From: an uncultured virus (IMG/VR IMGVR_UViG_3300032046_001865)
Lineage: Duplodnaviria > Heunggongvirae > Uroviricota > Caudoviricetes
DNA: 64,000 nt
IMG/VR virus record: IMGVR_UViG_3300032046_001865
Span: 1 to 64,000 of that record
Direction: 5' to 3' (one strand)
Both the position numbers and the translations under genes were made by a program. The notes under the pieces were generated by a model. It searched no databases and had not been told where the DNA came from. It saw only the letters and a list, made by a program, of their open reading frames with translations. Of the stretch, positions 36,105-64,000 are shown one piece after another. Each line of letters starts with the position of its first letter. Position 1 is the stretch's first letter.

Positions 36105-37440
36105 TCAGCGTAAGACTTTCATTCTTGACACAAACGTTTTCCTCAGTGACGTCGACGCGATCGGCTCGTTTGGGGACAACGATGTGGTCATTCCACTTGC
36201 TGTCTTAGAGGAGTTGGATTCCAACAAGAAGCGAATGGACGAGGTGGGTCGTAACGCACGTTCGGCATGTCGAAAGCTCGACGCGCTTCGTGACGTTGGA
36301 AGTCTGCATGATTGGGTCCCTCTCCCTAACGGAGGTCGGATCTGTGTTATGCAGAACAAGGCTGACGCGAAATCCATCCTGCCGTCTGAACTCCACAGCG
36401 ACAAGAACGATAACCTGGTCATTGCGTGTGCGCTTCAACTCAAGGATAGCGATCCCATCGTTGTGTCGAAAGACATCAACGTTCGTGTGAAATGTGATGC
36501 ACTTGGTGTCATTGCTCAAGACTACTTGAAGCAGCGTGCAGCCGACATGGCTGAGAACCTCTACACAGGCGTGCTCGTCACTCCACTCGACGACGATCTT
36601 GTCGCCACTGTGTGGGCGACTAGGCAACTAGACATCGACGACGTGCCTCACGACACACATCCCAACCAGATCGTCGTCATCCCACGCAGTGGTGATGCAG
36701 CGACCACGACAGTTGTCCGTCACATGAACGGCAAGTATCGTCTTGTAAAGGAACATCGTGACGTGTTTGGGCTTGAGCCACGTAACAAGGAACAGAACTT
36801 CGCTCTGGATCTGCTGTTGGATGAGAACGTGAAGCTTGTCACACTGGTTGGCCCCGCCGGATGTGGAAAGACCTTGATCGCTCTCGCGGCTGGGTTGCAA
36901 CAGACGCTTGGTGCACATCCGATCTACGACAAGCTCGTTGTGACCCGTCCTATCGAGCCGCTCGGTCGCGACATTGGATTTCTTCCTGGAACATTTGAAG
37001 AGAAGATGGCGCCATGGATCGCGCCGATCCGTGATAACCTTGGCTTCCTACTCTCTCACAAGGGGAAGAGTGGTAAGAAAGGAGCCAAGGATATCGAAAG
37101 CGATCCGTACATCAACATGCTCTTTGAGCAGAAGAAGATCGAGATCGAGGCTGTCGCGTACATTCGTGGGCGCTCCATTCCAAACTCGTTCATCATCATC
37201 GATGAAGCGCAGAACCTCTCAGTCCACCAACTCAAGACGATCATCACACGCTCAGGTGAGAACACGAAGATCGTTCTCTGTGGTGACGTGCATCAGATCG
37301 ATGTCACGCACATGGACGCCGTCTCCAACGGTCTGTCGTACGTGGTTGAAGCCTTTAAAGACGAAGAAATGGCTGGTCACGTCACCTTGATCAAGGGAGA
37401 GCGCTCAGCATTGGCCACGCGTGCAGCTGAACTGCTGTGA
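36076..37440 (+). CDS. phoH: PIN-PhoH protein (PhoH2/YlaK type)
   Basis: ILDTNV..EELD (PIN); GPAGCGKT, GFLPG, RGRS, IIDEAQN, GD. Confidence 0.92.
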   Translation: MRSQSLPKTDQRKTFILDTNVFLSDVDAIGSFGDNDVVIPLAVLEELDSNKKRMDEVGRNARSACRKLDALRDVGSLHDWVPLPNGGRICVMQNKADAKSILPSELHSDKNDNLVIACALQLKDSDPIVVSKDINVRVKCDALGVIAQDYLKQRAADMAENLYTGVLVTPLDDDLVATVWATRQLDIDDVPHDTHPNQIVVIPRSGDAATTTVVRHMNGKYRLVKEHRDVFGLEPRNKEQNFALDLLLDENVKLVTLVGPAGCGKTLIALAAGLQQTLGAHPIYDKLVVTRPIEPLGRDIGFLPGTFEEKMAPWIAPIRDNLGFLLSHKGKSGKKGAKDIESDPYINMLFEQKKIEIEAVAYIRGRSIPNSFIIIDEAQNLSVHQLKTIITRSGENTKIVLCGDVHQIDVTHMDAVSNGLSYVVEAFKDEEMAGHVTLIKGERSALATRAAELL

Positions 37441-37472: not shown

Positions 37473-38405
37473 ATGGGGCTACTCGATCCTAAGTCACGTG
37501 TTCTAGACGTTGTGTTGACCGATCAGGGTCGAGAAGCGTTGGCACGCGACGCGTTCAAGATTGCTTACTACAGTCTGACAGACGCGACGACGTTTTACGA
37601 GCTCGACGCAAGCGGATCGTCTGACGTCACTGTGCGGGTGCATGCTGAATGCTCCCCAAACACTCCACAGGACGTCATCAGCCTGTTGACGGATGACGCA
37701 GGGCAGGTGACGCGTGTGCGTTCTACGGCAATGCCTACTGGCTCTGTTTACGGTGGACACATCCTACAAGGCGCTTACCAAGATGAACGCATCTTGTCGG
37801 GTAGTGCCTTTGCTTCGATGGCCGGGCTCATTCTGTCTTCGTCGCTGGACAACCTGAAGAACAACTACGTGCTTGGAACGGTGGATGAGTTTTTCGAGGA
37901 TGAGGAATTTAGGCTTGGTCCAAGTCACGTCAATTTCTCGTTGAGTGTGGCAGATGATCCAACCCACCTGAACACAGCAAATGTGTCAGATCTTGAAGGT
38001 TTCATTCAAGATCCACTGCTAAGTCACGTTCCCAACTTCCAGTACCTGCCTCCTATCAACAAGCGAACCTCTGACGAGGTGCCTGTGTCTCTTCTCGGTC
38101 AGTACTCAGCACTTGGTGGCAACATCCAGATGGATTTCAACGATGTTAAACTGGAGATGAGCGCTGCACGTAACGTCGGAAACGTGCGTACATTCACGTT
38201 TGATCCAGCACCACGAACGAACAACATCCATTTGCAGTTCTTTGAGCAGACCAGCGCTGGGATGACGAAGTTGGACGTGATCGATTTTGGCACGTACCGT
38301 GGCGACGCAGGCGCGCCGGTTCGCGTGGTGTTCGTAGGCAAGGTGTACTGGGACGATTACGACGTCGAAACCTTTGTCAGGCTCTTCACGATCACGTTGG
38401 AGTAA
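37473..38405 (+). CDS. Putative virion structural protein
   Basis: MGLLD..DVVLTDQGR..LAR N-terminus shared with the gene at 48827. Confidence 0.6.
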   Translation: MGLLDPKSRVLDVVLTDQGREALARDAFKIAYYSLTDATTFYELDASGSSDVTVRVHAECSPNTPQDVISLLTDDAGQVTRVRSTAMPTGSVYGGHILQGAYQDERILSGSAFASMAGLILSSSLDNLKNNYVLGTVDEFFEDEEFRLGPSHVNFSLSVADDPTHLNTANVSDLEGFIQDPLLSHVPNFQYLPPINKRTSDEVPVSLLGQYSALGGNIQMDFNDVKLEMSAARNVGNVRTFTFDPAPRTNNIHLQFFEQTSAGMTKLDVIDFGTYRGDAGAPVRVVFVGKVYWDDYDVETFVRLFTITLE

Positions 38406-38409
38406 GAGA

Positions 38410-40815
38410 ATGTACATCCACCTTCAAACATCACACCAAGTCGTCACGCTACCAGACGATTTTCTCACTCTCAAACAGATCGATGGTGAGGATCTCGTTT
38501 TTGAACTGAAGTACCTTTTTGATCAAGAGGTAGGGATCAAACAGGGCATCACGAGCGTGAGCGTCGAGATCGCAAAGAATTCTCCGCCGAAGTTCGCGTC
38601 AGATGATCCAAACATCGTGCGTGGGATCCAGCAGCAAAAGGGTATTCACACGCGACGAATCACGAACTACATCAAGAATGATCTCGTCACGACAGTCGCG
38701 AGTGATCCTACTAAAAACGTGAACAACGAGATCGTTCCTCTTTACAAGCGTGGGTTCAACTCAACGCAGATCCCACAGCTTTTTTCTCGCAGGTTGAAAG
38801 CAGTTCGTCTTCAAGATGCAAAGAACCCGATCACTCTTGTAAACGCACAACACGATGTTGGCGAAGAAAGCTCGGAACAGAAGATCGCCGAAGAGCTCTT
38901 GATGCTTGGCGCAGATCCCAGCATGTCATACGAGGAAAATGATCTTGGGTTGTCGTTGAACGAGAGTCATAACGGCACACATCGTGCTAGTCCATCGGTC
39001 TTCACCACCAAGGTTCAGAAGACGTTGTACAAGTATAAAATGCTACCACATCTGAAGCCCATCGAACAAACATCGCCAGGTGAAGTCGGTGTCGTTATTT
39101 TCGATGACAGCGCAACACCCGATCAGTTCGTAACGGAACGTGTAACCGTTGACGGTCGTCACGCCGAAGTAAAAGACAAGATCAGGTTCACGCTGCCTGC
39201 TACAAGTCCAGATAGACTCACACTGATCCTGAAGGCAAAGGATTCATCTGGCGTGACAATGCAGATCCTTGAACGTGTGTTCCATCCACGTGAGTACATC
39301 AAGTACTTCAGCATTCCTACGATCGCTCCGATTGTCAAGTTGAGCAATCAAACTGACAAGACGTACGGCATGCTTAGCATCAAACAGGTCGATCCAGTTG
39401 CCACACATGTTCGTGTTTACAAGCGTGTGTATGATCACTTCACGGTCAACGACGAACAATACACTCTTGTGAATGAGTTCGATCTAGTTCCATCAAATGG
39501 TTGGAAATACATCCCAGTGGAGATATCGTTGGGCAACACGAACATCTACCGTGTGGTCCCGCTCAGCGCGCTTGGCATTCATGGTTCAGACTTTGCAACC
39601 ATCGTAGTCAAGCCTAAAATGCGAAATCCAGCGATAAAACGCGTCGTTGTCACGACGAAACCACAGCTACAGAGCGTGTTGCTAGAGGTGTCAAAACTCC
39701 CATCAGACTGCGTGTCGTTTCAGATGCTACGTGAAGATGTGACACTTGACAAAGGAACGCGCGTGTTTGTTGAAACCCCTGTGAGAACAGAAAGCAACGA
39801 TCCTAACCATGTGTACACGCTCACTGACATAGGCGTCAAACAGAACCATGTGTACGCTTACCACTGTCGCATCTTCAGGAAGACAGGAAGTCACGAGGAT
39901 AGGTTGGCGACCCATTACGAGCACGTCGCGCTCGTTGAGAACGTCGTTGAAACAAAGATCGTTGATACGATGTTGCAGCTAACAAACTCAGGTTACGACG
40001 TCCAGTTCACCATCTCCACCACAGTTGTGAGCACGAACGTTGATCAGATCAAGCAGATGCTGGAACGTCAAGGTTTGTACGAGATATTCAAGGATGACGT
40101 GGCAGATGTTCGCGATCAGCTTGCGAAGCTGATCGCTCATAACGTGAAACGAGTTGATTTGACTACAGGCGACGTTGAGGATTTCGGGACTGTCACGGCA
40201 GATAAATTCTCTGATCTCACATCACGAAATGTGACAGGCGTCTCTGAACTACGTTTAGGTCACAAGTACCGATACATCGTGACCGCTCTTTTACGCACCC
40301 CCGAAACGCTGTTGGAGTCGTTCATCAAGACATCGCGTGACACGATCACCGGACGTGATTACTCGTACAGTCCGTTCAAATTCCTTCACCCTGTCGTAGC
40401 AAAATACGGGAACATCGTGACTCCAAGCTCAATCCGCACGAACTACTCCAAAGATCCCATGACATTTGGAGAGATTGGCAACCACACTACGGTTGAGATC
40501 GCGCTTGACAAGCAGAACTCAATCATCACGTCTGCTACACGTGTGAAGAAAGGAAGCGACGTTGATGTGCTTCAATGGGTGCTGGTTGGCCCTTCTAAGG
40601 ACGTTGATCACTTCCAGATTGTCGTTGAACACGGTGGGAAGAAGACGACCGTCGGCAAAGCAACGTGCGTGCCAGAGACCGACAACTTCTTGTATGTGCG
40701 ACGTCTAGATCAAACAGAAGTTGGTCTTGATCTGAAGTACTACGTGTGTCCTGTGTACCACGATTACGTTCGCGGTCGCGAAATCCTTGTGGCAAACACC
40801 GAGGGCAGCTCGTGA
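38410..40815 (+). CDS. Putative virion structural protein (beta-rich, FN3-like segments)
   Basis: ~800 aa; YRVV/YAYH/YRYIV strands; operon context. Confidence 0.55.
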   Translation: MYIHLQTSHQVVTLPDDFLTLKQIDGEDLVFELKYLFDQEVGIKQGITSVSVEIAKNSPPKFASDDPNIVRGIQQQKGIHTRRITNYIKNDLVTTVASDPTKNVNNEIVPLYKRGFNSTQIPQLFSRRLKAVRLQDAKNPITLVNAQHDVGEESSEQKIAEELLMLGADPSMSYEENDLGLSLNESHNGTHRASPSVFTTKVQKTLYKYKMLPHLKPIEQTSPGEVGVVIFDDSATPDQFVTERVTVDGRHAEVKDKIRFTLPATSPDRLTLILKAKDSSGVTMQILERVFHPREYIKYFSIPTIAPIVKLSNQTDKTYGMLSIKQVDPVATHVRVYKRVYDHFTVNDEQYTLVNEFDLVPSNGWKYIPVEISLGNTNIYRVVPLSALGIHGSDFATIVVKPKMRNPAIKRVVVTTKPQLQSVLLEVSKLPSDCVSFQMLREDVTLDKGTRVFVETPVRTESNDPNHVYTLTDIGVKQNHVYAYHCRIFRKTGSHEDRLATHYEHVALVENVVETKIVDTMLQLTNSGYDVQFTISTTVVSTNVDQIKQMLERQGLYEIFKDDVADVRDQLAKLIAHNVKRVDLTTGDVEDFGTVTADKFSDLTSRNVTGVSELRLGHKYRYIVTALLRTPETLLESFIKTSRDTITGRDYSYSPFKFLHPVVAKYGNIVTPSSIRTNYSKDPMTFGEIGNHTTVEIALDKQNSIITSATRVKKGSDVDVLQWVLVGPSKDVDHFQIVVEHGGKKTTVGKATCVPETDNFLYVRRLDQTEVGLDLKYYVCPVYHDYVRGREILVANTEGSS

Positions 40816-43800
40816 GCATCACCGTGAGGAAATCGGCTGTCACCGCAGCCTCCATCTCCATCCAACCAAAACCACTTGTTTCAACGTCTGCAATCGTCTC
40901 AACTACCACTAGTCAAAAACTGTCCATAACGAACATTTTGGCATCGTTGGCTGTAGCACCTGCAAAATCAAAGTTCTCGTTCGATCGCTTCGACTTCAAG
41001 GCAATCTACACAGGGTTGTACCTGACTGCACCTGATCGTCGTTACAACGATGAACTCCCACATTCGACAGCAAAGTTCACAGCGTTCGAAGAACTAAGCG
41101 GCATCGCTTCCTCTAGGCCAGACATCCTCAGCGTTTCCGAGTTCAAACCACTGTTTGAAGGAAACAACAGTGGATTCACAGCTGCAGGTGAGTTCATGGA
41201 TGCGCAAGTAAAGCTGATGAACCTACGGCATGAAGCTGTCGTCACACTCGTCAACGATCTCAAGAAGGACGAGAAGTTAGCGGAACAACTGGATCAGATC
41301 GAACGCGATTTCCTTCTACATGTGGAGAACCTGAAATCACAAGCAGATTTCTTGGTCAGCTTGCAGAAGTACATCCAACGCCTCAGCAACCTTCTTGATC
41401 TGCGTGACACCGGCACAAAGATCGATGCTGCTGCTCTGTTGGCCCAGTACTACTCGTCAATCTACAACAACGTCACGTCGGCAAAAGATACGTTGCCAAT
41501 CTTCACGTACGCTGATCTGCTTGGACAGCATGGTTTTGACAAGAAAAATGTGAATGGGTTCAGCAGCACCAAGATCCTTCTTCAAACGCTGTTTGAGGCG
41601 AAAAAGATCCTTAGAGCAGGCAGTGATTCCCTAGTGAGTGTGGATGTGTCTCTCGCTGCGAAAGACAAAGACGCGTCAACGATCAATCGACGTGTTTACA
41701 GCGATCCACACGTGAAACTCGGAAAAATCACAGACTTCCCAAGCTTTTCAGACGTTGCAACGTTTGGGATCCATAACTCAGACACCAAACGAACGTCGTA
41801 CGTGAAGCAGTTGGAAAATGGTTTCCGTGCCATCGACACTGTGTATGCAGGCGCGTCTTCAGACGAGATCGCTTACACGCTAAAATTGCGGACATTTGCC
41901 CGTGAAGCGTCGTATTCTAAAGCGTTGAACGATCCCGCGGTGTCAACTCTGTTGTCGCAGTACGGCTACCAGCTCAGCACAACTGTTGGAAATCAGCAAC
42001 TGTTTGATGCAGTTTACGGACAACTAGGAAGTCGCATCACCGACGATCGAACAGGTGTGAACGCGAACTCGTTGAGTTCGATCGCCTCTCGGATCGTCGG
42101 TGACGTCTCTGTGCTCACCTACGAGGTCGATTACCTCGAGGATGATCAGGGGAGCGTGTTCACGCCAGGCGCAGCATTTTACATTGGCTCCACGGTCAAA
42201 CCAAGTGACAACGGGTTCTCTATCGACAACGCAGCTGCTCTTGTGTCAAGACTGTCAACGATCATCGACAAATACGTGGATTTTGTCGGAAAATTCAACA
42301 TCCTACCGCGTGTTGGAAACATCCTTAACACGCAGTCTGAAACGCAGTTGATCACCGATCCTTCGTTGATGACCAACGCGTTGTACAGCATCTTTGTGGA
42401 AAGCGACGGCAACCACTTGATGAACGACGTGGAGGATAATCCAATAGTCAACCTCTTCGCAGAGGCAGCCACGAACGCGACGTTGCGCGCGAACCTGCAC
42501 CTGTACATGTGTTGCGTTGGCAACGTGACAGGCGATGGCTTGGTGGACGCCGTTGGTGCTCGTGAGAACGCCGGCGTGAGTCTGAGTCAGGAATCGTTGA
42601 ACGCGGCAGCGGCCGCTGAGAATCGCAATGCGGCCATCAGCCCAACGATTGACAAGCTCATCAACAACTGTATCTCTTACTACAAGAGCATCACGAAGGA
42701 TTCTGCACGAGCAGCCAAGATCGAACACTCGTTGAAGAATTTCAACGAGCAAGGTCCATTGGCTCGATCGATCGCCTACGTGGTTGCGGTCTACGGAACA
42801 TACAAGAAGATCGCGGAATCTAGTCCAACACGTTACTCACACCTCACAGACAACATGATGGTCGCACTGTCAGTGCAAAGCGTGTTCGACACCGCACGTC
42901 GCTACGCCTCGGCAGGTGTGAGCCAAAATGTTGCGATGTTGGCGAACCAGAACTTTGCAGCAGTCGCCAGCAGCAAAGGTTCGTTGGTCGCAAGTCTCTT
43001 TGGATCGCAAACGACGACTCAACACGTCGTTGCTGCTCCCACCACGAAGACGACCGCGAAAGCTCTTGGTCGTGTGAAGTTGCCAGCTCAACCAACCGTC
43101 GCTGTCAAGGCGCCCGTGCTGAGTAGGGCAAGGATCACCACAAAGTTGCCTTTGAAGCAAGCTGTGTTGGCAAGGTTGGATCGTGAAGAAACGCTTTCCA
43201 TTCGCACAGCGTTGGCTCCTCTCAACGCGATTCGAGTCGTTCGTGACGGGTTGAAGGATTACGTTGTCTACCTGCAAAAAGCAGACAGTGTCAAGATGAT
43301 CAACGATATCTTGGCGGTCGTTGGCGATCGAAAGCTTGTTGAACTGTTAGGTGATCGTGGGCAAGTACAACTGCTCTACAACACTGTGGAAGGCATTCTT
43401 GAGAAGATCGATCCGGCGTCGACAACAAACGCAACCGTCACCAATCTTGTCGATGTCACGTCTCTAACACGTTCGGTCGATCCGGCCGAGGATCTGAAGA
43501 TCTTCGATGACTCCTTCATCACAAGCAAGACGCTTGATGTGCTTAAGGCTGTCTTTTCGAACGCGAAGTACAACATCGCGCGAGGCTCAAACATTCGTGT
43601 CATCACCTTTGGTCTTCCACATGGCTTCGCGGCGAAGTTAAGGAACAAGTTCAAGTTGACAAGCTTTGCCGAGCAGGTAAACAGCAAGTTGAAGCAGAAC
43701 GACGTGGTGATCGCAGACGTGTACAAAGTCGACGTTCGTTACCCCGATCTTGTCTTCAAGCCGATCTCGCGCGTGTTCGAGCTGAGCCGTTTCCCAGTGC

Positions 43801-44660
43801 GTAACGAGAACAGCTTCAAGAAGGCGGGCGTAGGCATGTCTCTTGAAGACGCGTTGGATGCCGTTCCAACCAGAGATTACACGAACATCGACTCGCCTGT
43901 CACGACAACAGACGTGCCTCAATTTGGATCTGGCGCGAACGTTGCGTACGACTTCTTGACAAAACTTGATCGTTTGAGCATGATCCGTAACCACACAACA
44001 AGCTACATGCTCGAGCTCTACTTTCGCATCTTGACTGGCATCCCGTTGAGCGAGCGCGAGCTTTACATTGCCGATCCCGATGAAAATGATCGTCCTATGC
44101 CGTTCATCGTGCGTGCCGTGTTGAACAACATCACCGAAAAGACATTCAAGGCTCCGCCGCCTCCACCGACGCCGAAAGTTGTGCCTCCTATGCTCGCTAC
44201 TGCGATAGCAGAAAAAGGAAAATGGTCTGCTGTCAACGGGAAGTTCGACGTCAAAATTGAGAGCAGTGGTGCTACAAGATACCTCGTGGGAACGAAAGCA
44301 CACGCCGCGGTGATCGCACCGTTGGCCAGTAAAATGACAGTGTACATCGATCATGCCACTTCTGGCAAATACATGATGTCACCCAAGCTCTTCGAACGTG
44401 TCTTCTTTGTGGACATCGATCCTGACGACTACGAGATCGATCACGACGAGACATTCAAGACCGAAGCGGGTCGCAAAATGTTCACACAGTTGCAGCAAGC
44501 CGGCGAAGTGGTGACCATCACCAACAGTTTCGAACAGGCTAATTCGCTGTCACGCGACACCTACAAGCTCAAAGATCACACGATAGAAAAACAGATGATC
44601 TTCGAGAAGTACTTCATCACCGTTCGATCCTACGCGCCACTCCCTGTGAGGTCAATTTGA
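40812..44660 (+). CDS. Large putative virion protein
   Basis: ~1280 aa, overlap-coupled; no recognised domain. Confidence 0.55.
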   Translation: MSITVRKSAVTAASISIQPKPLVSTSAIVSTTTSQKLSITNILASLAVAPAKSKFSFDRFDFKAIYTGLYLTAPDRRYNDELPHSTAKFTAFEELSGIASSRPDILSVSEFKPLFEGNNSGFTAAGEFMDAQVKLMNLRHEAVVTLVNDLKKDEKLAEQLDQIERDFLLHVENLKSQADFLVSLQKYIQRLSNLLDLRDTGTKIDAAALLAQYYSSIYNNVTSAKDTLPIFTYADLLGQHGFDKKNVNGFSSTKILLQTLFEAKKILRAGSDSLVSVDVSLAAKDKDASTINRRVYSDPHVKLGKITDFPSFSDVATFGIHNSDTKRTSYVKQLENGFRAIDTVYAGASSDEIAYTLKLRTFAREASYSKALNDPAVSTLLSQYGYQLSTTVGNQQLFDAVYGQLGSRITDDRTGVNANSLSSIASRIVGDVSVLTYEVDYLEDDQGSVFTPGAAFYIGSTVKPSDNGFSIDNAAALVSRLSTIIDKYVDFVGKFNILPRVGNILNTQSETQLITDPSLMTNALYSIFVESDGNHLMNDVEDNPIVNLFAEAATNATLRANLHLYMCCVGNVTGDGLVDAVGARENAGVSLSQESLNAAAAAENRNAAISPTIDKLINNCISYYKSITKDSARAAKIEHSLKNFNEQGPLARSIAYVVAVYGTYKKIAESSPTRYSHLTDNMMVALSVQSVFDTARRYASAGVSQNVAMLANQNFAAVASSKGSLVASLFGSQTTTQHVVAAPTTKTTAKALGRVKLPAQPTVAVKAPVLSRARITTKLPLKQAVLARLDREETLSIRTALAPLNAIRVVRDGLKDYVVYLQKADSVKMINDILAVVGDRKLVELLGDRGQVQLLYNTVEGILEKIDPASTTNATVTNLVDVTSLTRSVDPAEDLKIFDDSFITSKTLDVLKAVFSNAKYNIARGSNIRVITFGLPHGFAAKLRNKFKLTSFAEQVNSKLKQNDVVIADVYKVDVRYPDLVFKPISRVFELSRFPVRNENSFKKAGVGMSLEDALDAVPTRDYTNIDSPVTTTDVPQFGSGANVAYDFLTKLDRLSMIRNHTTSYMLELYFRILTGIPLSERELYIADPDENDRPMPFIVRAVLNNITEKTFKAPPPPPTPKVVPPMLATAIAEKGKWSAVNGKFDVKIESSGATRYLVGTKAHAAVIAPLASKMTVYIDHATSGKYMMSPKLFERVFFVDIDPDDYEIDHDETFKTEAGRKMFTQLQQAGEVVTITNSFEQANSLSRDTYKLKDHTIEKQMIFEKYFITVRSYAPLPVRSI

Positions 44661-46519
44661 GCACATCTAAACCTTCAAGTGAGATCCACGTCATCGACGT
44701 TCCTGACGTAGGTGGGTTCACCTCGCGTTTCGTGTACAACTACCACATCAAGGATGAAGGCACGAACGGAGCTGCTGGCGTAGCGCAAGCCTTGCTGACG
44801 AAACCAGGCGAGTACTTCGACGCACACGTCGTTGACTACCTTGCGATGGCAAAAGCGCCACGCTACGTGGTCTTCACATGGAGTCCTGTCAGTTACCGTG
44901 ATCGGTTGTACGGACAGTCACCGTACTTCCAGGATGATGAGATCCCCAAAAATTACGTGCGTGACAACCTCGCAAATGTGTTGAGCGAGGAGCATTTCGC
45001 GTCCGACAAGTTCACAAGCTACAACATCAGTGATCAGAGCATTGATCGCAAGCTGTACTCGTACATCTCAGCATCAGCAAATGTGCTCAACTCGCAACGT
45101 CAGAACGCTTCGACGCAACGTGGTCTCGCGTTGCAGACGAACGAGCTCACGTCAAACCAGGTCGACTACCAGTTCCTTTCCAAGTACCTTGTGCAGCCAG
45201 CTGAGGACGGTGCGTTCTTTTACACACGTGACTCGCAACGTGTACGCAACGATGTTGTGAACAAGCTCAAGGATTTCAACATTCAGGTTCAACTCAACAA
45301 CAACATCATCCACACGTTGATCAAGCGCGCGATCGCATTTCCAGAGTCAACGTTTGACAGCGTTCACCTGCCGATGTACGAGGTCTCACGTAAGTTGCAA
45401 GGGAAAGCGCAGACACGCGGCATCAGAGACCTCAAGGCCGACGACTACAGAACCGTTGCCCCGGCGTACGTGAAGTTGAAAGCAATGAAATCAGCTGATC
45501 CAGGCCTTGCAACGCACGCTCGGATCGTTGGGTACATCATCAACCGGTACGAGATCTTGGGCGATGGACGATCAGTCGCCTTGGACCCGATCGTCATAGA
45601 GAACCCCAAAGCGTCGTCGACAGTTGACTTGAACGTGAAGTACTACGCGAGGTACCAGTACACTGTGCGTTCTGTGGCAGAGTTTAGCATCCCCTCAATC
45701 GTGGAGGATACAAACGAACTGGTGGTCTCGAAGTTCCTCATCGCCTCACGTCCAAGCGCACCACTAGTCGTGTCGTGTGTTGAGCTTGTGCCACCGCCGG
45801 CGCCGGCTGACGTGCGCTTCACATGGAACTGGGACACAGATAAACTCTTCATCAGTTGGTCGTTTCCACCCAACCCGCAACGTGACATCAAGCAGTTCCA
45901 GGTGTTTCGACGTCGCAGCACCACTGAACCGTTCGAGCTTGTGAAACAGATCTCCTTCGACGATTCCACGGTGCCTGCGCCTTACGCTGAACGCCCTGAT
46001 CCACGTCATGTAGAGGATGTCACGAACCCAAAACTCTGTTGGATCGACGACGAGTTCACACGTGATTCAAGCTTCATCTACGCGCTTGGCAGTGTAGACG
46101 CACATGGAATGGTCTCGACGTACGGTCCGCAATCGCAGGTGTCTTACCTCAAGTACCGTAACCGTCTGTCTGTTTCACGTGTCTCACCAGGCGGTGCGCC
46201 ACGCCCGTACCCAAATATGCATCTACGTGTTGACACGTTTGTCGACAGCGTGATCGAATCCAAGAAGCACACGATGAAGGTTGCCTTCGTCCCCGAACAC
46301 AACCTGATCATTGACAAGAACAACAACGACCTTGGGTTCATCAAGACAGAGGACAAGGGTGGTCACTACAAGATCCTAGCGATGAACACGGATCTAGCGA
46401 CAGCGCAGGTTGTGGACATCGTGATCAAGGATCAACGTCCAGCTGACGTTGTCCAAAAGCCACCGAGCGCTGTCGCGATCCCGGATTACGGGAACACGCT
46501 CGCGAAAAGTCTGAAGTGA
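44657..46519 (+). CDS. Putative virion protein with FN3-like region
   Basis: PPPAPADV..ISWSFP..FQVFRR..YALGSVDAHG. Confidence 0.6.
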   Translation: MSTSKPSSEIHVIDVPDVGGFTSRFVYNYHIKDEGTNGAAGVAQALLTKPGEYFDAHVVDYLAMAKAPRYVVFTWSPVSYRDRLYGQSPYFQDDEIPKNYVRDNLANVLSEEHFASDKFTSYNISDQSIDRKLYSYISASANVLNSQRQNASTQRGLALQTNELTSNQVDYQFLSKYLVQPAEDGAFFYTRDSQRVRNDVVNKLKDFNIQVQLNNNIIHTLIKRAIAFPESTFDSVHLPMYEVSRKLQGKAQTRGIRDLKADDYRTVAPAYVKLKAMKSADPGLATHARIVGYIINRYEILGDGRSVALDPIVIENPKASSTVDLNVKYYARYQYTVRSVAEFSIPSIVEDTNELVVSKFLIASRPSAPLVVSCVELVPPPAPADVRFTWNWDTDKLFISWSFPPNPQRDIKQFQVFRRRSTTEPFELVKQISFDDSTVPAPYAERPDPRHVEDVTNPKLCWIDDEFTRDSSFIYALGSVDAHGMVSTYGPQSQVSYLKYRNRLSVSRVSPGGAPRPYPNMHLRVDTFVDSVIESKKHTMKVAFVPEHNLIIDKNNNDLGFIKTEDKGGHYKILAMNTDLATAQVVDIVIKDQRPADVVQKPPSAVAIPDYGNTLAKSLK

Positions 46520-47663: not shown

Positions 47664-47945
47664 GTGACCGACGAGTACGCGTTGCTGATGGCCTTGGTTG
47701 AGCATGCCGAGTCAGGCGAGGCTGCCTACGAGCTGAGCGTCGACGTCGAGCACGTCGAGCAGACAGGTGACATCTACCGCACGTGCTGCGCCGTGTACGT
47801 TGACGGGGAGCAAGCGTTCTTGATCGACATGAAAGAGCTGTCCACGTGGCTGATCTCGCCGAGCAGGCTGAGGCCTTTCGGCAACGTTTACATACGAAAC
47901 AGACATCGCAAGGATTTCAGGCTTGAAGACGAACCGATGAAGTAG
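47664..47945 (+). CDS. Small protein, paralog of 48287..48568
   Basis: MTD..LL..L...AES...A..L.V....V.VDG.Q pattern shared. Confidence 0.6.
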   Translation: MTDEYALLMALVEHAESGEAAYELSVDVEHVEQTGDIYRTCCAVYVDGEQAFLIDMKELSTWLISPSRLRPFGNVYIRNRHRKDFRLEDEPMK

Positions 47946-48289
47946 GTTCTTGACATGTGTAAGACCAAACTGCAGCAACTGCGGATGTCGAAATGCGAGA
48001 ACAAGCTGTTCTCCTGCAGCGTTCATAAAATCGCCGAGAAGGCTGACGAACTCAACGAGCTGTTCAAGGATGGATGGCTCACTGAGGAGACGCAGGTCGT
48101 CGGCGACACGTACCTTGTGCTCTTGAAGAAGGAGCATTCCGGACGCAAGGTGTTCTACGTCGACGTGGGCAACATGGCGCCGGAGGAGGTCACAGCGTAC
48201 ATGGATCGTGTGAAGGAGCTGACGTCTAACCCGGACAAGGATAGCGACTTCTACATCCCAGGCAGGTGATCGCGTAGGTTCTTGACATG
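47942..48289 (+). repeat. 16-bp perfect direct repeat GTAGGTTCTTGACATG (47942-47957 and 48274-48289)
   Basis: Read directly; each copy ends in the ATG of a small gene. Confidence 0.9.
47955..48269 (+). CDS. Small protein carrying a portal (clip-region) fragment
   Basis: RKVFYVDVGNMAPEEVTAYMDRVK versus portal RRVFYVDVGGVAPDEIGAYMEAAK. Confidence 0.8.
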   Translation: MCKTKLQQLRMSKCENKLFSCSVHKIAEKADELNELFKDGWLTEETQVVGDTYLVLLKKEHSGRKVFYVDVGNMAPEEVTAYMDRVKELTSNPDKDSDFYIPGR

Positions 48290-48568
48290 ACGGACGCTAT
48301 GACCATGCTGCTCAACCTGATCACCCTCGCTGAATCCGACCCGACAGCGATCAAGCTTGAGGTGAGCCGTACGTACTACGATCCAGAGGACTTCACGCCA
48401 CGTAAGACGGTGAGGGTTGACGGCTCTCAGGTGTGCGTCGTGGAGCTTGCAGACGTGATGGAGGCGTCGAAGGACTGGCCCGCTCTGCGACACGAGACGC
48501 TAGAGAAGTACATGCCAACGTTGAAGCCGGGGATGATCCCGGTGGGGGAGCCGGTCGAGGACTCGTGA
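48287..48568 (+). CDS. Small protein carrying a capsid-like DPEDFTPRK motif
   Basis: LEVSRTYYDPEDFTPRKTV resembles the gp23-type motif that follows YxPY. Confidence 0.6.
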   Translation: MTDAMTMLLNLITLAESDPTAIKLEVSRTYYDPEDFTPRKTVRVDGSQVCVVELADVMEASKDWPALRHETLEKYMPTLKPGMIPVGEPVEDS

Positions 48569-54387: not shown

Positions 54388-55373
54388 TAACCGTCTCGCA
54401 GAAGTACGAGCTGCTCGTGAAGCTGCTCGGGCCTGGCGACATCGACAGCCGCGCGATCAACGCGCAGTTCTGGTGCCCGTTCTGCAAGCACCACGACGCG
54501 AAGAAGCGCAAGCTGGCCGTCCGCCTCGCTGACGGCATCACACATTGCTGGGTGTGCAACTGGTCAGCGAAGAGCCCAACGCGGCTCGTTCCAGTCTTCG
54601 GCGCACGTCACCTGTTGGCCGAGCTCACAGCTGCGTTCGGAGACGGAGGCACCGTCGTCGAGGATGAGCCGATTGAGAACGTCGCAGACGCCGAGTTGCC
54701 GTCCGACTTCTCGCTTGTGTGCGATGAGATCGACAACGGCGTGCGCCACCCAGACAAGCTCGACGCCATCAGCTACCTCGAGAAGCGTGGCGTGTCGTAC
54801 AGCACCGCCAAGTACCTTCGCCTCGGGTTGTCGACCACCGGAGCGTTCCGACGACGCGTCGTCTTCCCCTCGTTCGACGGCGACGGCGCGCTCAACTACG
54901 TCACCGCGCGAGCCATCGACGACGCGACAACATTCAAGTACTTCAACACGCAGAGGCAACGCTCTGAGCTCGTGTTCAACGAGGTCGACGTGGCGTGGAA
55001 CCGTGAGCTCATCCTTGTTGAAGGACCGTTTGACCTGACCGCTTGCGCTGGGATGAACGCGGTGCCGATGCTTGGCTCGTGGCTCGATGAGAATTACTTG
55101 CTGTTCAACCGCATCGTGCTCAACCGCACGCCGGTGTGTCTCGCGTTTGATCCAGACGCAGCGAAGAAGCAGGCGAAGGTCGCGGCTCGCTTCCTACGCT
55201 ACGAGATACCTGTGCGCACCGTTGATTGGACTGGGCATCCGCTCGATCATGATCCGTCCAAGGTTGGGCATGTAGCCTTCCGTCAGATGGTGAAGGCGGC
55301 GAAGACGTTTGACGAGACGACGGCCTTCCGGTCAAGACTGGCGCGAGCACTAGGTTCGATGAGGTTGACATGA
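54384..55373 (+). CDS. DNA primase (Zn finger + TOPRIM)
   Basis: CPFC..HCWVC, YLEKRG, RVVFP, VEGPFD, FDPDA. Confidence 0.88.
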   Translation: MITVSQKYELLVKLLGPGDIDSRAINAQFWCPFCKHHDAKKRKLAVRLADGITHCWVCNWSAKSPTRLVPVFGARHLLAELTAAFGDGGTVVEDEPIENVADAELPSDFSLVCDEIDNGVRHPDKLDAISYLEKRGVSYSTAKYLRLGLSTTGAFRRRVVFPSFDGDGALNYVTARAIDDATTFKYFNTQRQRSELVFNEVDVAWNRELILVEGPFDLTACAGMNAVPMLGSWLDENYLLFNRIVLNRTPVCLAFDPDAAKKQAKVAARFLRYEIPVRTVDWTGHPLDHDPSKVGHVAFRQMVKAAKTFDETTAFRSRLARALGSMRLT

Positions 55374-55969
55374 AGATTGCACACATTGCCGATTTACATG
55401 TTCGTGGTCTCACACGTCACGATGAGGTTCGCACCGTCATCACAGCCTTCTGTGAGGATGCCAAACTACGACAGGTCGATCACATTGTCATCGCCGGCGA
55501 TCTTTGGCACACGAAGACGTACGGCATGACAGCTGAGTACTTCGAACTCATGACATGGATGCTGCGTTCGATGGCCGAGGTTGCACGCGTCCACGTCACG
55601 TTGGGTAACCACGACGGCGCGCTCACCAACTTCTCAAGGCAGGACGCGATCAGCCCGATCGTTGACGCTATCGCTGACCCACGGATCAAGCTGTATAAGA
55701 AAAGCGGTGTGTACCCGATCCAAGACGGTGTCAATCTGTGTGTGTACAGCTTGTTTGACAAAGAAAGTTGGGATGCTGTTGGTCCTGTCGACGGCGATTA
55801 CAACGTCGCAGTTTACCATGGCTCTGTCGGCGGTGCGGTGACAGAAGAGGGGTGGATCCTCAAGCATGACGTGACAGTCTCGTGGTTTGAGGACAAGAAG
55901 TACGACATCGTGCTGCTTGGAGACATACACAAGCAGCAGTACCTCGGGTACAGGGAGTACGAGGAGTGA
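55370..55969 (+). CDS. SbcD/Mre11 (gp47-like) nuclease, N-terminal part of a split gene
   Basis: IADLH, AGDLW, GNHD, YHG, GDIH; ends before the YxGS motif. Confidence 0.88.
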   Translation: MKIAHIADLHVRGLTRHDEVRTVITAFCEDAKLRQVDHIVIAGDLWHTKTYGMTAEYFELMTWMLRSMAEVARVHVTLGNHDGALTNFSRQDAISPIVDAIADPRIKLYKKSGVYPIQDGVNLCVYSLFDKESWDAVGPVDGDYNVAVYHGSVGGAVTEEGWILKHDVTVSWFEDKKYDIVLLGDIHKQQYLGYREYEE

Positions 55970-56847
55970 AATCGTGCGCTCGTTGCTTGCAACCGCTCCG
56001 CGGAAGACAGAAAGTCTACTGCTCGCGAACATGTCAAGCGAAAGCGTTAGGTGTCAAAAGCGCCTACATCGTTGTTCGTAATTGTGCGACGTGCGCCAAA
56101 GAATTGGTGATTCGGATTCGAAGTCGCGGCGAGAGCGATCGTGTGTACTGCTCGAAGAAGTGTTACGGGGTCCATCTGAGCGTTGCGTACGTCGGCGCCG
56201 CGAACCCGGGCGTCGGTCGAGTTCGTTCCGCGGAAGAAACCGCAAAGCGTTCCGAGTCGATGATAAGCAAATGGAACGACGAGACGTACCGAGCGAACGT
56301 GCAAGCTGGGCAGGCAGCGTTCGTCGAGCAGCACGGGCATTGGGGTGGCTCTGACATTCAAACGATCGAGAAACGACGTGCTACTTGTCGTGTTCGTTTT
56401 GGCGTTGATCACCCCTGGATGATCGAATCGATCCGTGAAAAATGCGAAGTCACATCATTGAAACGTCACGGCAAGCTGACGTGGCAAATCGCGAAGGACG
56501 CGGTGCCGACTTCTGACACGCGACCCGAACTGCGTTTCGCCGAAGCGCTCCGAGCGGCAAACATCACCCATGCTCACCCGTTCGACGTGTTCTACGACCA
56601 ACGACGAAAGTTTGAGTACGACTTTTACCTCCTCGGCAAGCGAACGCTCGTCGAAGTCGACGGGGATTACTGGCACGCTCACCCTGACAAATTTCCTGAG
56701 CTAGACGCGACACAGAAGTGGAATCGCGATCACGATCTGAAGAAGAACGAGCTCGCCGAACGATTAGGCCTTCGATTGGTCAGAGTGTGGGAATCTGATG
56801 TGATGAACGAGGAACAATTGACGAAAGTAATCGAGGGCTTGCGATGA
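55966..56847 (+). mobile_element. Homing endonuclease-like gene (Zn-finger repeats + Vsr/DUF559 nuclease)
   Basis: CARC..YCSRTC, CATC..YCSKKC, FGVDHP, YDF..EVDGDYWH..D..KN..RVWE. Confidence 0.82.
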
Positions 56848-62248: not shown

Positions 62249-64000
62249 ATGGCTGATCGCAGAGGCAACCTTTTTGCACAGTTAACCCGACTCTTCAAAT
62301 CTGGACCTATCGTCAAGAGGAAGGTCAAGTCGGCAAACACACGCATCGCACGCGCTGATCCCACTGGGATGAGCAGCGTCCTCCTTTTGTCGAAGACACA
62401 GGGAGTTGGGTTCAACGCGTCTCTCAACGGTCAATACGGCGTTCAAGAACGCCAGTCACGCTTGCAAGACTACAACGAGATGGACGCGTACGCGCTAGTC
62501 AACGCTGCACTTGACATCTACGCAGATGAGTCTGTGGCACAGGATGCTAACGGAAAGACGCTCCACATCCACTCTGACAACCCGGCCATCAAGGAGAACC
62601 TTGAAGAGTTGTTCTACAACACGCTCAACGCCGAGTTCAACCTACGGCCGTGGACACGCAATCTGTGTAAGTACGGTGACTTCTACCTGTACGTGGACGT
62701 TTCGCCTGAGTACGGAGTCATCAACGTCATCCCGATACCAGTGAACGATCTCAACCGTGAGGAAGGTTACGACACCGCCGATCCGTTGGCTGTTCGCTTC
62801 CGTTGGACGAGCCTTGGAAACAAAGTTCTTGAGAATTGGGAGGTCGCGCACTTCCGATTGCTTGGCAACGACATGTACCTTCCGTACGGATCCTCCATGG
62901 TTGACGGTGGTCGTAGGTCGTGGCGACAGCTCGTCATGATCGAGGATGCGATGCTGGTCTACCGTGTGACGCGCGCCGTCGACAGACGTGTCTTCTACGT
63001 TGACGTTGGTGGTGTTGCTCCTGATGAGATCGGCGCTTACATGGAAGCTGCCAAGATGAACATCAAAAGTCAGGCCATCGTCGATCAGGCGACTGGAAGA
63101 GTTGATCATCGATACGCTCCGCTCTCCATCGAAGAGGATTACTGGGTCGCGACACGTGGCGGAGAAACTGGCACAAAGATCGACACGCTTCCCGCGGGTA
63201 CAAACGTCGCTCACGTTGAAGACGTCGAGTACATCAAGAAGCAGCTCATCGCAGCGCTTAAAGTGCCAGCTGCTTACCTTGGGTACAACGATGCTATCCC
63301 AGGCTCGTCTGGGCTCGCGCAGGTTGACATCCGTTTCTCACGCACGGTCAATATGATCCAGCGAACGATCGTCAGTGAACTCAACAAGATCGCGATGATC
63401 CACCTTTACGCAGCGGGTTTCCGTGGCGAGGATCTAACCGACTTCGAGCTTAGCCTGAGCAACCCATCGACCATCGCACAGCAACAGAAACTTGAACTAC
63501 TTCGTTCACGTTTCGAGATCGCCGGCACAATGCCTATGAACGGTGAGACCCCGCTTATGAGCGAACGTTGGCTGTTCCGAAACGTCATTGGGTTGAATGA
63601 TCAGGAGATCTTGCAGGTTCGACGTGAACGTCTAGATGACGTTCGTGCGTCTGGTGCGCTTGAAGCAGCTGGAGCTCTTTCAGGTGGTGCTGGTGGTGAG
63701 GCAGGCGGCGAAGCTGAAGTTGGTGCAGAGGCTTCGGCTGGTGGTGAAGAAGCTGGCGGAGCCGAGGCAGGCGCGGCAGCACCCGGGCTTGAGACCGCCG
63801 CGGATGACAACCGCGGGCAAGGAGACATTCTCACGGCGGTTGGATCACGTTTGAGAGAACAAGACGGCCCTGTCAAGATCTCGCCACACCTGAAGAACGC
63901 GATGTACAACCGTCGTCGCAACCTGAGACGGCGAGGGGATGGCTTCCCCAAGATCAACGACCGTGCGCTCAACGGTGACACAGCTGTGCCGTCTAACCCT
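62249..64000 (+). CDS. Portal protein (T4 gp20-like), 3' end outside window
   Basis: Manual translation: ALDIYADE, CKYGDFY, LPYGSSM, EDAMLVYRV..RRVFYVDVG, EDYW..RGG, IDTLP, ALKVP, DIRFSR; no stop before 64000. Confidence 0.95.
   Translation, partial: MADRRGNLFAQLTRLFKSGPIVKRKVKSANTRIARADPTGMSSVLLLSKTQGVGFNASLNGQYGVQERQSRLQDYNEMDAYALVNAALDIYADESVAQDANGKTLHIHSDNPAIKENLEELFYNTLNAEFNLRPWTRNLCKYGDFYLYVDVSPEYGVINVIPIPVNDLNREEGYDTADPLAVRFRWTSLGNKVLENWEVAHFRLLGNDMYLPYGSSMVDGGRRSWRQLVMIEDAMLVYRVTRAVDRRVFYVDVGGVAPDEIGAYMEAAKMNIKSQAIVDQATGRVDHRYAPLSIEEDYWVATRGGETGTKIDTLPAGTNVAHVEDVEYIKKQLIAALKVPAAYLGYNDAIPGSSGLAQVDIRFSRTVNMIQRTIVSELNKIAMIHLYAAGFRGEDLTDFELSLSNPSTIAQQQKLELLRSRFEIAGTMPMNGETPLMSERWLFRNVIGLNDQEILQVRRERLDDVRASGALEAAGALSGGAGGEAGGEAEVGAEASAGGEEAGGAEAGAAAPGLETAADDNRGQGDILTAVGSRLREQDGPVKISPHLKNAMYNRRRNLRRRGDGFPKINDRALNGDTAVPSNP

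What the first reader, a model, noticed from the sequence alone, without database searches (positions are those of the whole stretch)
47955..48269. Mini-protein with the portal clip segment
Residues from 48144 (RKVFYVDVGNMAPEEVTAYMDRVK) match the portal at 62984-63055 (RRVFYVDVGGVAPDEIGAYMEAAK) at 15 of 24 positions. After a short linker comes DFYIPGR, corresponding to portal DYWVATR, with the intervening portal loop mostly removed. The N-terminal half (ELNELFKDGWL..LLKKE) resembles the DUF4177-like pattern also seen at 13148. In gp20-type portals this region is the clip, which contacts neighbouring subunits, terminase and the head-closure adaptor. Synonymous codon differences argue against a recent duplication or an assembly artefact.
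Basis: partly seen in the sequence, partly recalled or inferred. Interest (0 to 1): 0.8.

Follow-up and report, generated by a model that had tools for sequence, protein, structure and literature searches.

The report
Small phage protein carrying portal clip
An uncultured giant phage encodes a conserved 104-residue protein whose tail end is a trimmed copy of the portal's docking tip, which may let it form a small look-alike of that docking site.

Summary
ORF 47955-48269 (+, 104 aa) is a real gene. It has full-length relatives of 97-108 aa at 31-75% identity and dN/dS of about 0.15 against a 67%-identical orthologue.

Residues 61-104 are homologous to the clip of T4-type portals. BLASTP against the window's own portal gives E 3e-9. 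A profile-profile comparison gives 98% probability, E 1.5e-13, with a 17-residue portal loop deleted. The segment corresponds to T4 gp20 279-339.

It is no closer to its own portal than to distant portals, so it is not a recent duplication. Residues 14-60 are predicted as a beta-alpha-beta-beta domain that resembles small DUF4177/DUF1737 phage proteins in fold only.

A four-copy model passes its controls, 0.45 against 0.00, with a head-to-tail interface. Other small proteins with one or two clip modules exist.

My best reading, which is inferred, is a self-associating clip mimic that competes for a clip-docking factor. No function was tested. Four literature searches found no description of such proteins.

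The parts
47955..48269 (+). Mini-protein gene, 104 codons plus stop; ATG start at the same position as in the orthologues
   Evidence: ORF list. Seven homologues of 103-108 aa at 60-75% identity cover 97-100% of the query. dN 0.29 and dS 1.9 against the L004 orthologue.
47994..48134 (+). N-terminal domain, residues about 14-60: strand 13-22, helix 23-38, strands 42-49 and 52-61; DUF4177/DUF1737-like in predicted fold
   Evidence: AF2 on 16 sequences, pLDDT 92-94 over residues 21-60. BFVD matches to small DUF4177- or DUF1737-named phage proteins, rmsd 1.0-1.7 A over about 50 columns, E 5e-3 to 0.1. No Pfam hit.
48135..48266 (+). Clip-derived segment, residues 61-104, corresponding to own portal 243-303 and T4 gp20 279-339
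   Evidence: hhalign probability 98%, E 1.5e-13; gp20 mapping.
48147..48164 (+). Clip strand 1 (residues 65-70, KVFYVD); K65 is invariant and V66, Y68, V71 nearly invariant in 16 sequences
48168..48197 (+). Clip tip, residues 72-81 (GNMAPEEVTA). N73, M74, E77, E78 correspond to gp20 N291, M292, R295, K296, the proposed gp17 contacts. No column here is invariant among the 8 close orthologues
   Evidence: PMC4493910 passages.
48180..48224 (+). Clip helix (residues 76-90), equivalent of gp20 alpha6
48249..48263 (+). Clip strand 2 (residues 99-103, FYIPG), corresponding to portal 298-302 (YWVAT). D98 is invariant. The protein ends at R104, which corresponds to gp20 R339
47943..47957 (+). Intercistronic junction TAGGTTCTTGACATG, copy 1: stop of the upstream gene, AGG, then the ATG of the mini-gene
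   Evidence: Exact 15-nt repeat, 2 exact copies in the window. The same TAGG[AT]T-N7-ATG junction form occurs in L155.
48275..48289 (+). Identical junction, copy 2, in front of the downstream paralogue
47664..47945 (+). Flanking small gene, paralogue A (93 aa), no known family
   Evidence: BLASTP against paralogue B: 17/59 identities, E 2e-5. No Pfam or PHROG hit.
48287..48568 (+). Flanking small gene, paralogue B (93 aa), no known family
62249..64000 (+). T4-type portal gene, 3' end outside the window (open frame 689 aa in the record)
   Evidence: Pfam Portal_T4 E 1.3e-69.
62975..63157 (+). Portal residues 243-303, the part of the clip that the mini-protein matches

Best explanation
ORF 47955-48269 is a real accessory gene of an uncultured, probably giant, phage. 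Its product has two parts. Residues about 14-60 form a small beta-alpha-beta-beta domain of the kind seen in DUF4177/DUF1737 phage proteins. Residues 61-104 are an old, trimmed copy of the T4-type portal clip: strand 1, helix alpha6 and strand 2, without the loop gp20 311-326 and without the last 19 clip residues. I propose that the N-terminal domain drives head-to-tail self-association. That would place the clip modules side by side, with strand 1 of one copy next to the C-terminal strand of the next, much as in a portal ring. The resulting portal-less clip array would compete for something that normally docks on the portal clip. I favour a host sensor of portals over the phage's own terminase or neck protein. 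Shown here: the gene is real, it is under purifying selection, and it is homologous to the clip. Predicted only: the fold and the self-association. Inferred only: the competitor or decoy role and its target.
For: Gene reality: 7 homologues at 60-75% identity, all 103-108 aa. The exhaustive profile search adds relatives of 97-106 aa at E 2e-30 to 5.5e-10. dN 0.29 against dS 1.9 versus L004. Orthologues sit in the same gene block on three other contig lineages. Clip homology. Age: the clip segment matches its own portal at 17 of 31 positions and unrelated portals at up to 20 of 31 (that set was selected by a shared motif). Fold: AF2 on 16 sequences, mean pLDDT 80.7, gives strand 65-70, helix 76-90, strand 99-103. 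Self-association: four copies scored 0.45, 0.23 and 0.46, median 0.45, against a best of 3 controls of 0.00. The mark was reached by 20 of 30 proteins solved as pairs of one chain and 1 of 23 solved as single chains. The runs share at least 50% of contacts and the partner's pLDDT is at least 56. My own alignment and four copies differ from the calibration. One face (14-20, 44-58, 64-71, 79-87) meets the other (23-37, 40-48, 96-103). Of the 15 invariant or nearly invariant positions, 11 lie among the 51 interface residues (one-sided Fisher p 0.039). The clip as the working unit: other small proteins consist of little else. Six proteins of 93-201 aa pass the Portal_T4 cut-off, five of them with two stretches. 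Two more such ORFs lie on phage contigs, L055 (97 aa) and L131 (93 aa). Conflict-type context: gene order in this block of small unknown genes differs in all three contexts seen. The mini-protein diverges faster (67% identity) than portal (83%) and TerL (79%) between the same two phages. The clip is a known immune epitope: SpbK binds the clip helix of the SPbeta portal (PMC12847820, passages).
Against: No binding partner was tested. The tip, which contacts the terminase in T4, is the least conserved part. Residues 72-81 have no invariant column among 8 orthologues. They share 1 of 10 residues between the window and G001 proteins, while the two portals share 9 of 10 there. So the protein does not track its own portal's docking surface. 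That weighs against a terminase or neck target, and against an epitope-level decoy. Avs4 is described as sensing portal monomers as folds (10.1101/2025.11.14.688446, passages), and 44 residues could hardly imitate that. The most confident predicted contacts lie in the N-terminal domain rather than in the clip. One of the three runs scored only 0.23. The pass may owe something to solved portal rings. The monomer model has pTM 0.49. A ring-shaped decoy might trigger, rather than block, a sensor that is activated by clustering on the clip.
Confidence: 0.4

Rival explanations
1. Portal-directed protein. Its clip strands pair with the complementary strands of free portal subunits, or with an open edge of an incomplete ring. 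It would then act as an assembly cap or chaperone for the phage's own portal, or as a poison for the portal rings of co-infecting T4-type phages.
For: In T4 the clip holds the only main-chain to main-chain hydrogen bonds between portal subunits. [quoted passage not shown] The strands are the best conserved part of the mini-protein and keep the pan-T4-type consensus: KVFY[VI]DV and D[FY][FY][IV]P.R. The tip, by contrast, drifts.
Against: The protein lacks the equivalents of gp20 340-358. It would meet its own portal, which carries the same strands. Conserved strands are equally expected if they are simply the core or the self-interface.
Confidence: 0.2
2. Exapted building block. The clip-derived beta-alpha-beta is only a structural or oligomerisation piece added to a DUF4177-like domain. 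The protein's function has nothing to do with portals, packaging or portal sensing.
For: The clip core is a compact beta-alpha-beta that packs against neighbours in portals. The tip is unconstrained. The most confident predicted contacts involve the N-terminal domain. DUF4177/DUF1737-like small proteins are common in phages in their own right.
Against: Several unrelated architectures keep the same clip core together with the portal-like G[DN]M.P tip, and some are little more than two clip modules. That is hard to explain if the clip were incidental. The conservation of D98 and R104, which correspond to invariant portal residues D297 and R303, goes beyond what a generic strand needs.
Confidence: 0.25
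3. Non-functional remnant: a decaying fragment of a duplicated portal gene, or a chance ORF.
For: Short ORF, no Pfam hit above the cut-off, no RNA data.
Against: Relatives keep the length (97-108 aa), and the closest homologues cover 97-100% of the query. Forty columns are invariant among 8 sequences. dN/dS is about 0.15. The N-terminal half is not portal-derived yet is conserved as well.
Confidence: 0.03

Closest known systems
Clip domain of T4-type portal proteins (T4 gp20, Pfam PF07230 Portal_T4; PDB 3JA7, 6UZC)
   Same: Residues 61-104 are sequence-homologous to gp20 279-339: strand 1 (R-[RK]-V-[FW]-Y-V-D), the G-N-M turn, helix alpha6 and the E-D-Y-W strand. The predicted order of secondary structure is the same, beta-alpha-beta.
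   Different: No wing, stem or crown; 104 aa against 524. The loop gp20 311-326 and the last 19 clip residues, gp20 340-358 (which include K342 of the DNA-facing inner clip loop), are absent. The stem helix is replaced by an unrelated beta-rich domain. The tip charges are acidic (E77, E78) where T4 has R295, K296. The Pfam score is below the cut-off.
DUF4177 (PF13783) and DUF1737 small phage proteins
   Same: The predicted fold of residues about 14-60 superposes on 48-90-aa phage proteins with these names: rmsd 1.0-1.7 A over about 50 columns, and 8 of the top 50 BFVD rows carry one of the two names. The LN.L...GW motif recalls the window's own 48-aa DUF4177-like ORF at 13148-13294.
   Different: No sequence-level membership: 0 of 16 family members hit DUF4177. 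No BFVD match reaches E 1e-3. Those proteins have no clip segment, and their function is unknown.
GFRP (GTP cyclohydrolase I feedback regulatory protein) and KCTD5/KCTD1 C-terminal domains
   Same: These are the best solved-structure matches for residues 11-63. GFRP: Z 6.0-6.5, rmsd 1.5-2.0 A, 44-50 residues. KCTD: Z 5.4-5.7. Both are ring-forming homopentamers (recalled from memory, not from a call), which fits a self-associating N-terminal domain.
   Different: Z is under 8, the range the tool flags as a possibly common arrangement. They are eukaryotic proteins with unrelated roles and there is no sequence relationship.
Other stand-alone clip-module proteins found here (P0017, P0018, P0019, P0022, P0024, P0032; L055 9794-10087; L131 6112-6393; P0023, P0025, P0034)
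   Same: Small proteins (85-201 aa) that carry the [RK].[VI]FY[VI]D[VI]G.M.P...Y..V motif of T4-type clips without the rest of a portal. Where strand 2 is present the long clip loop is shortened as well.
   Different: Different partner domains: two clip modules in tandem, a C-terminal helical tail, a Zn-ribbon-like N-terminus, or the end of the stem helix. Some keep the third clip strand, which the window protein lacks. Only P0025 seems to share the N-terminal domain type.
Portal-clip sensing by host defence (SpbK-YonE of B. subtilis/SPbeta; portal sensors Avs4 and Avs11)
   Same: These show that the clip, and portals in general, are targets of immune recognition, which a free clip mimic could in principle intercept (PMC12847820, passages; 10.64898/2026.01.04.697583, passages).
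   Different: No sensor is known for this phage's unknown host. Avs4 is described as sensing portal monomers. No interaction was tested.

Membership tests
T4-type portal protein (Pfam PF07230 Portal_T4) | Whole-protein HMM score at or above the gathering cut-off of 22.9 bits | tested here: not met
   20.2 bits, E 2.8e-4. 12 of 16 family members hit at E<=10, best 5.5e-6.
T4-type portal protein (Pfam PF07230 Portal_T4) | Full wing-stem-clip-crown architecture (about 430 profile positions) | tested here: not met
   Only profile positions 206-232 of 433 are matched. hhalign aligns only residues 61-104. The protein has 104 aa.
T4-type portal protein (Pfam PF07230 Portal_T4) | Clip core: strand, helix alpha6, strand, with the VFYVDVG motif | tested here: met
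   hhalign probability 98%, E 1.5e-13. AF2 gives strand 65-70, helix 76-90, strand 99-103. Motif conservation.
T4-type portal protein (Pfam PF07230 Portal_T4) | Dodecameric ring | not testable with these tools
   Only four copies could be modelled. Head-to-tail contacts were predicted: score 0.45 against 0.00 for the best of 3 controls.
DUF4177 (Pfam PF13783) | HMM match | tested here: not met
   0 of 16 members at E<=10. The N-terminal 62 residues alone give no family at E<=10.
DUF4177 (Pfam PF13783) | Small beta-alpha-beta-beta fold | tested here: inconclusive
   BFVD: five rows named DUF4177 and three named DUF1737 among the top 50, best E 4.9e-3, none at or below 1e-3. The Atlas rows are under its own bar. 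hhalign against the window's DUF4177-like ORF gives 21% probability.
Phage counter-defence decoy | Binds and neutralises a host sensor of the mimicked protein | not testable with these tools
   Host and sensor are unknown. No complex with a sensor was modelled.
Phage counter-defence decoy | Lies in a variable accessory gene block and evolves faster than core genes | tested here: met
   Gene order differs in the window, L004 and L155. Mini-protein 67% against portal 83% and TerL 79% identity between the window phage and G001.
Phage counter-defence decoy | Mimic tracks the surface of the mimicked protein | tested here: not met
   Tip residues 72-81: 1 of 10 identical between the two mini-proteins, against 9 of 10 between their portals. 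No invariant tip column in 8 orthologues.

The most novel reading that the evidence does not exclude
Stand-alone portal-clip proteins are an undescribed class of phage accessory proteins. In this family a DUF4177-like oligomerisation domain arrays trimmed clip modules into a portal-less ring. The ring imitates the docking face of the portal vertex. It would serve either as a decoy that intercepts host immune sensors docking on the clip (SpbK-like or Avs-like), or as a weapon that captures the terminase or neck proteins, or the portal subunits, of competing T4-type phages.
Probability: 0.25. Interest if true: 0.85.

Novelty: new variant of a known kind. Interest (0 to 1): 0.62.

Why it matters
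The portal clip is the hub of the packaging vertex. Terminase docks on it, then the neck, and at least one host defence protein does too. A conserved small protein made of little more than that hub, without the rest of the portal, would be a natural competitor at this site.

If it is a decoy or inhibitor, it opens a way to study how phages protect, or attack, the portal vertex. It would also supply a minimal, soluble clip module for structural and binding work.

The family seen here is one of several independent architectures built around the same module. That suggests a recurrent solution rather than a one-off accident. If it turns out to be only a reused structural piece, it is still a clear case of a virion-protein domain being recruited into an accessory protein.

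Tried and rejected
**Recent duplication or assembly artefact.** Rejected. 45 of 72 bases are identical, and the own portal is not the nearest clip.

**Pseudogene.** Rejected.

**Cultured relatives.** tblastn against 50,697 phage records found 45 records, none covering 80% or more of the query. Most listed hits lie in annotated portal genes; three lie in unannotated records, and the Erwinia phage Faunus hit is a GDSL-like lipase gene. Of the two hits I checked, RsoM2USA_378 is a 574-aa protein, and SOI901_24 lacks the motif when translated.

**Other collections.**
- Bacterial and archaeal genomes: a pattern scan gave 64 stretches, none a relative.
- Viral contigs with P0011: none.
- Viral contigs with the tandem-clip pair A5: of the 80 loci kept, only L131 holds a small ORF. 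The others were not inspected individually and are presumably portals.
- Alignments A4 and A2 were too divergent for the locus scan.

**Neighbours.** Seven nearby proteins have no Pfam family. Twelve of the 20 neighbouring proteins scanned have no PHROG.

**Transcription signals.** No promoter-like or terminator-like site lies at the gene.

**Fold searches.** Nothing reached Foldseek E 1e-3 or Z 8. The N-terminal domain filled the lists, so the clip part was never tested as a fold on its own.

**Expression.** No RNA holder was listed. The DNA holders are sediment and freshwater metagenomes, two of which may be the source.

**Repeat proteins.** P0016, P0020, P0021 and P0026 match only short stretches. 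P0020 and P0021 match residues 37-77 with W..GW...Y.FLLK repeats. I set these aside as probably spurious. P0029 and P0030 are intein-bearing portal fragments.

**Not done.** The sources and contexts of P0002-P0034 could therefore not be seen.

**Literature.** Four searches found no paper on stand-alone clip proteins or clip decoys. Subscription journals are not covered. Gao et al. 2022 on Avs4 was not seen and is only recalled.

Full report
**The setting.** The window is bases 1-64000 of a 72,728-base linear virus record that CheckV rates at about 20% complete, so the phage is probably very large. It encodes a T4-type large terminase (60063-61754) and a T4-type portal (62249 onward, Pfam Portal_T4 E 1.3e-69). 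The nearest portals in cultured phages are only 37-38% identical: Microcystis phage Mel-JY01 and Flavobacterium 'immuto' phages. Near-identical DNA is held by sediment and freshwater metagenomes.

**The observation.** ORF 47955-48269 (+) encodes 104 residues.
- The 24 residues from 48144 match portal 62984-63055 at 15 positions. At DNA level 45 of 72 bases agree, and 8 of the 15 identical residues use different codons.
- BLASTP of the whole protein against the portal gives 18/40 identities without gaps, E 3e-9 for that comparison.
- A profile of 16 orthologues against a profile of 10 T4-type portals gives 98% probability, E 1.5e-13. It aligns residues 61-104 with portal 243-303, places DFYIPGR on DYWVATR, and leaves 17 portal residues unmatched.
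- Pfam Portal_T4 hits the window protein just below its cut-off, 20.2 against 22.9 bits. It hits 12 of 16 family members at E<=10.

**Where this lies in a portal.** The window's portal aligns with T4 gp20 without gaps over 121 residues, so portal residue n corresponds to gp20 n+36. Mini-protein 61-104 thus corresponds to gp20 279-339.

Sun et al. 2015 (PMC4493910; section 6 read in full, other passages by search) give these facts:
- The clip is gp20 279-358, three strands plus helix alpha6.
- It is the docking site of the terminase gp17 and of the neck.
- N291, M292, R295 and K296 at its tip are the proposed gp17 contacts.

The mini-protein starts its homology exactly at the first clip residue. 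It keeps strand 1, the G-N-M turn, alpha6 and the E-D-Y-W strand. It lacks gp20 311-326 and everything after R339. Its N73, M74, E77 and E78 sit at the four tip positions.

**It is a real gene.** The word-indexed search found 7 homologues at 60-75% identity, all 103-108 aa and covering 97-100% of the query. Forty columns are invariant among the 8 sequences.

The exhaustive profile search of 1.84 billion representatives found 27 proteins at E<=1e-3. Seven of them are more distant relatives of 97-106 aa, at E 2e-30 to 5.5e-10. Against the 67%-identical orthologue on contig L004, dN is 0.29 and dS 1.9, which is saturated. The ratio is about 0.15.

No relative was found in bacterial or archaeal genomes with the two patterns used. 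No full-length relative was found in cultured phages.

**It is not a recent copy of this phage's portal.** Over the 31 comparable clip positions the mini-protein matches its own portal at 17 and unrelated environmental T4-type portals at up to 20. That set was selected through a shared motif, so the first residues are biased. The C-terminal D-F-[FY]-I-P-x-R is closer to the general portal consensus D-Y-[FY]-I-P-V-R than to the own portal's D-Y-W-V-A-T-R. The match is to the clip consensus, kept by selection.

**The N-terminal half.** It does not align with portals. AF2 on 8 sequences was poor, pLDDT 58. On 16 sequences it reached pLDDT 80.7 and pTM 0.49. That model gives strands 13-22, 42-49 and 52-61 and helix 23-38, followed by strand 65-70, helix 76-90 and strand 99-103.
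- Solved-structure searches gave nothing decisive. The best rows are GFRP (Z 6.0-6.5, rmsd 1.5-2.0 A over 44-50 residues) and KCTD5/KCTD1 C-terminal domains (Z 5.4-5.7), all under the tool's Z 8 caution line.
- Against predicted viral structures, residues of this half superpose on 48-90-aa phage proteins. Eight of the top 50 are named DUF4177 or DUF1737, with rmsd 1.0-1.7 A for the best, but no row reaches E 1e-3.
- At sequence level, 0 of 16 members hit DUF4177.
- The window's own 48-aa DUF4177-like ORF (13148-13294, minus strand; E 7.7e-5, below cut-off) aligns over only 14 columns at 21% probability.

**Self-association.** A model of four copies, using the 16-row alignment, scored 0.45, 0.23 and 0.46. 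The median is 0.45, against 0.00 for the best of 3 controls, which passes the tool's mark. That mark was reached by 20 of 30 proteins solved as pairs of one chain and by 1 of 23 solved as single chains. The runs share at least 50% of contacts and the partner's pLDDT is at least 56. My own alignment and four copies differ from the calibration.

The arrangement is head-to-tail. The sheet face (14-20, 44-58), clip strand 1 (64-71) and alpha6 (79-87) of one copy face the helix (23-37), the G40-W41 loop (40-48) and the C-terminal strand (96-103) of the next. The lowest-error contacts are between N-terminal domains. Eleven of the 15 invariant or nearly invariant positions fall among the 51 interface residues (p 0.039).

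This supports self-association but does not show it. Memory of portal rings may contribute to the score. The ring size is unknown. GFRP and KCTD C-terminal domains are homopentamers (recalled from memory), which is at most a hint.

**What evolves and what does not.** Between the window phage and the phage of L004 (record G001), the portal is 83% identical, TerL 79% and the mini-protein 67%. The portals' tip is 9 of 10 identical (GGVAPDEIGA against GGVAPDEIGN). The mini-proteins' tip is 1 of 10 identical (GNMAPEEVTA against TGLAQDKINE). No tip column is invariant among the 8 close orthologues.

The conserved elements are the strands, Y82-M83 in the helix, D98 and R104. D98 and R104 align with invariant portal residues D297 and R303. 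So the protein does not copy its portal's terminase-facing surface. What is preserved is the strand-and-helix core.

**Context.** The gene lies in a same-strand run of small genes without known families, between two paralogous 93-aa genes (17/59 identities, E 2e-5). Gene order differs in each context seen:
- Window: paralogue A, mini, paralogue B, 238-aa gene.
- L155: paralogue A, X, Y, paralogue B, mini, 238-aa gene.
- L004: paralogue, 133-aa gene, mini, X, paralogue B.

Junctions have the form TAGG[AT]T-N7-ATG. In the window the two junctions flanking the mini-gene are identical over 15 nt, which looks like cassette shuffling at intercistronic junctions. No promoter-like or terminator-like site lies at the gene.

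**A wider class.** Apart from the orthologues, the profile search recovered other small proteins built on the same module.
- P0017, P0018, P0019, P0022, P0024 and P0032 (93-201 aa) pass the Portal_T4 cut-off. Five of them have two matched stretches. P0018 and P0022 hold two complete modules, including the third strand.
- P0023, P0025 and P0034 carry one module with other partners.
- On phage contigs, L055 encodes a 97-aa protein with the end of the stem helix, strand 1 and alpha6. L131 encodes a 93-aa protein with an N-terminal clip module that has the same shortened loop, beside thymidylate-synthase-type genes.
- Of the 67 loci found with the family's motifs, 2 are orthologues, 1 is L055, and 64 are long ORFs of portal size or cut by contig ends.

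The sources and contexts of the P-numbered proteins could not be seen.

**Interpretation.** I read the protein as a self-associating clip mimic. A small oligomerising domain replaces the portal's stem and wing and sets trimmed clip modules side by side.

I favour a competitor or decoy role at a clip-docking interface (confidence 0.4 for the whole chain). Three things point that way. The clip is the unit shared by several architectures. The gene sits in a shuffled accessory block and evolves faster than core genes. And the clip is a documented immune epitope: SpbK docks on the clip helix of the SPbeta portal (PMC12847820, passages), and portals are sensed by Avs4 and Avs11 (10.64898/2026.01.04.697583, passages).

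Against it:
- The unconstrained tip argues against a terminase or neck target and against epitope-level mimicry.
- Avs4 is said to sense portal monomers (10.1101/2025.11.14.688446, passages).
- No partner was tested.

The rivals are a portal-directed cap or poison acting through strand pairing (0.2), an exapted structural piece with an unrelated function (0.25), and a dead fragment (0.03).

**Novelty.** Four literature searches found no description of stand-alone clip proteins or clip decoys. The library lacks most subscription journals. I rate this a new variant of a known kind: a known virion domain in a new, free-standing, conserved form, with its function still open.

Noticed in passing
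L070 about 2380-2850 (record G001, portal gene L070:1501-3927): The portal of the related phage carries an insert of about 150 aa inside the clip, between ...RYAPLPI and SIEEDYWVATRGG. It ends ...LLRN followed by S, which looks intein-like. The window's portal has no such insert.
   Followed up: partly
P0029, P0030: These are portal fragments from metagenomes with an intein C-terminal motif (HNF...THNT) directly in front of the end of the stem helix. Pfam Intein_splicing hits at E 4e-6 for P0030. Together with the G001 insert, this suggests the clip region is a recurrent intein site.
   Followed up: no
window 47943-47957 and 48275-48289; L155 about 1710-1724 and 2064-2078: Intercistronic junctions have the form TAGG[AT]T-N7-ATG. 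The two in the window are identical over 15 nt and flank the mini-gene, while gene order in this block differs between relatives. This looks like cassette shuffling by recombination at junctions.
   Followed up: partly
window 47664-47945 and 48287-48568: Two paralogous 93-aa genes (17/59 identities, E 2e-5) of no known family flank the mini-gene. Homologues occur in L004 and L155.
   Followed up: partly
window 13148-13294 (-): A 48-aa ORF with a DUF4177 hit just below the cut-off (E 7.7e-5, 23.3 against 25 bits).
   Followed up: yes
window 55370-59390: An SbcD-like ORF (55370-55969) and an SbcC-like ORF (56844-59390) are separated by an ORF with HNH/homing-endonuclease PHROG hits (55966-56847).
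   Followed up: no
L131 6112-6393; L055 9794-10087: Two further small ORFs on phage contigs carry a portal clip module in other architectures. L131 lies beside thymidylate-synthase-like genes. L055 lies beside a peroxiredoxin-like ORF; that label is my own reading of the sequence and comes from no call.
   Followed up: partly
P0020, P0021: These long repeat proteins carry many W..GW...Y.FLLK units that match residues 37-77 of the family profile (7 and 5 stretches). The likeness is probably only a beta-hairpin pattern, but it covers the most conserved motif of the N-terminal domain.
   Followed up: no
window 36016-37440: A PhoH-like gene (PHROG 2765, E 2e-102) lies upstream of the large unknown ORFs 38374-46519.
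   Followed up: no
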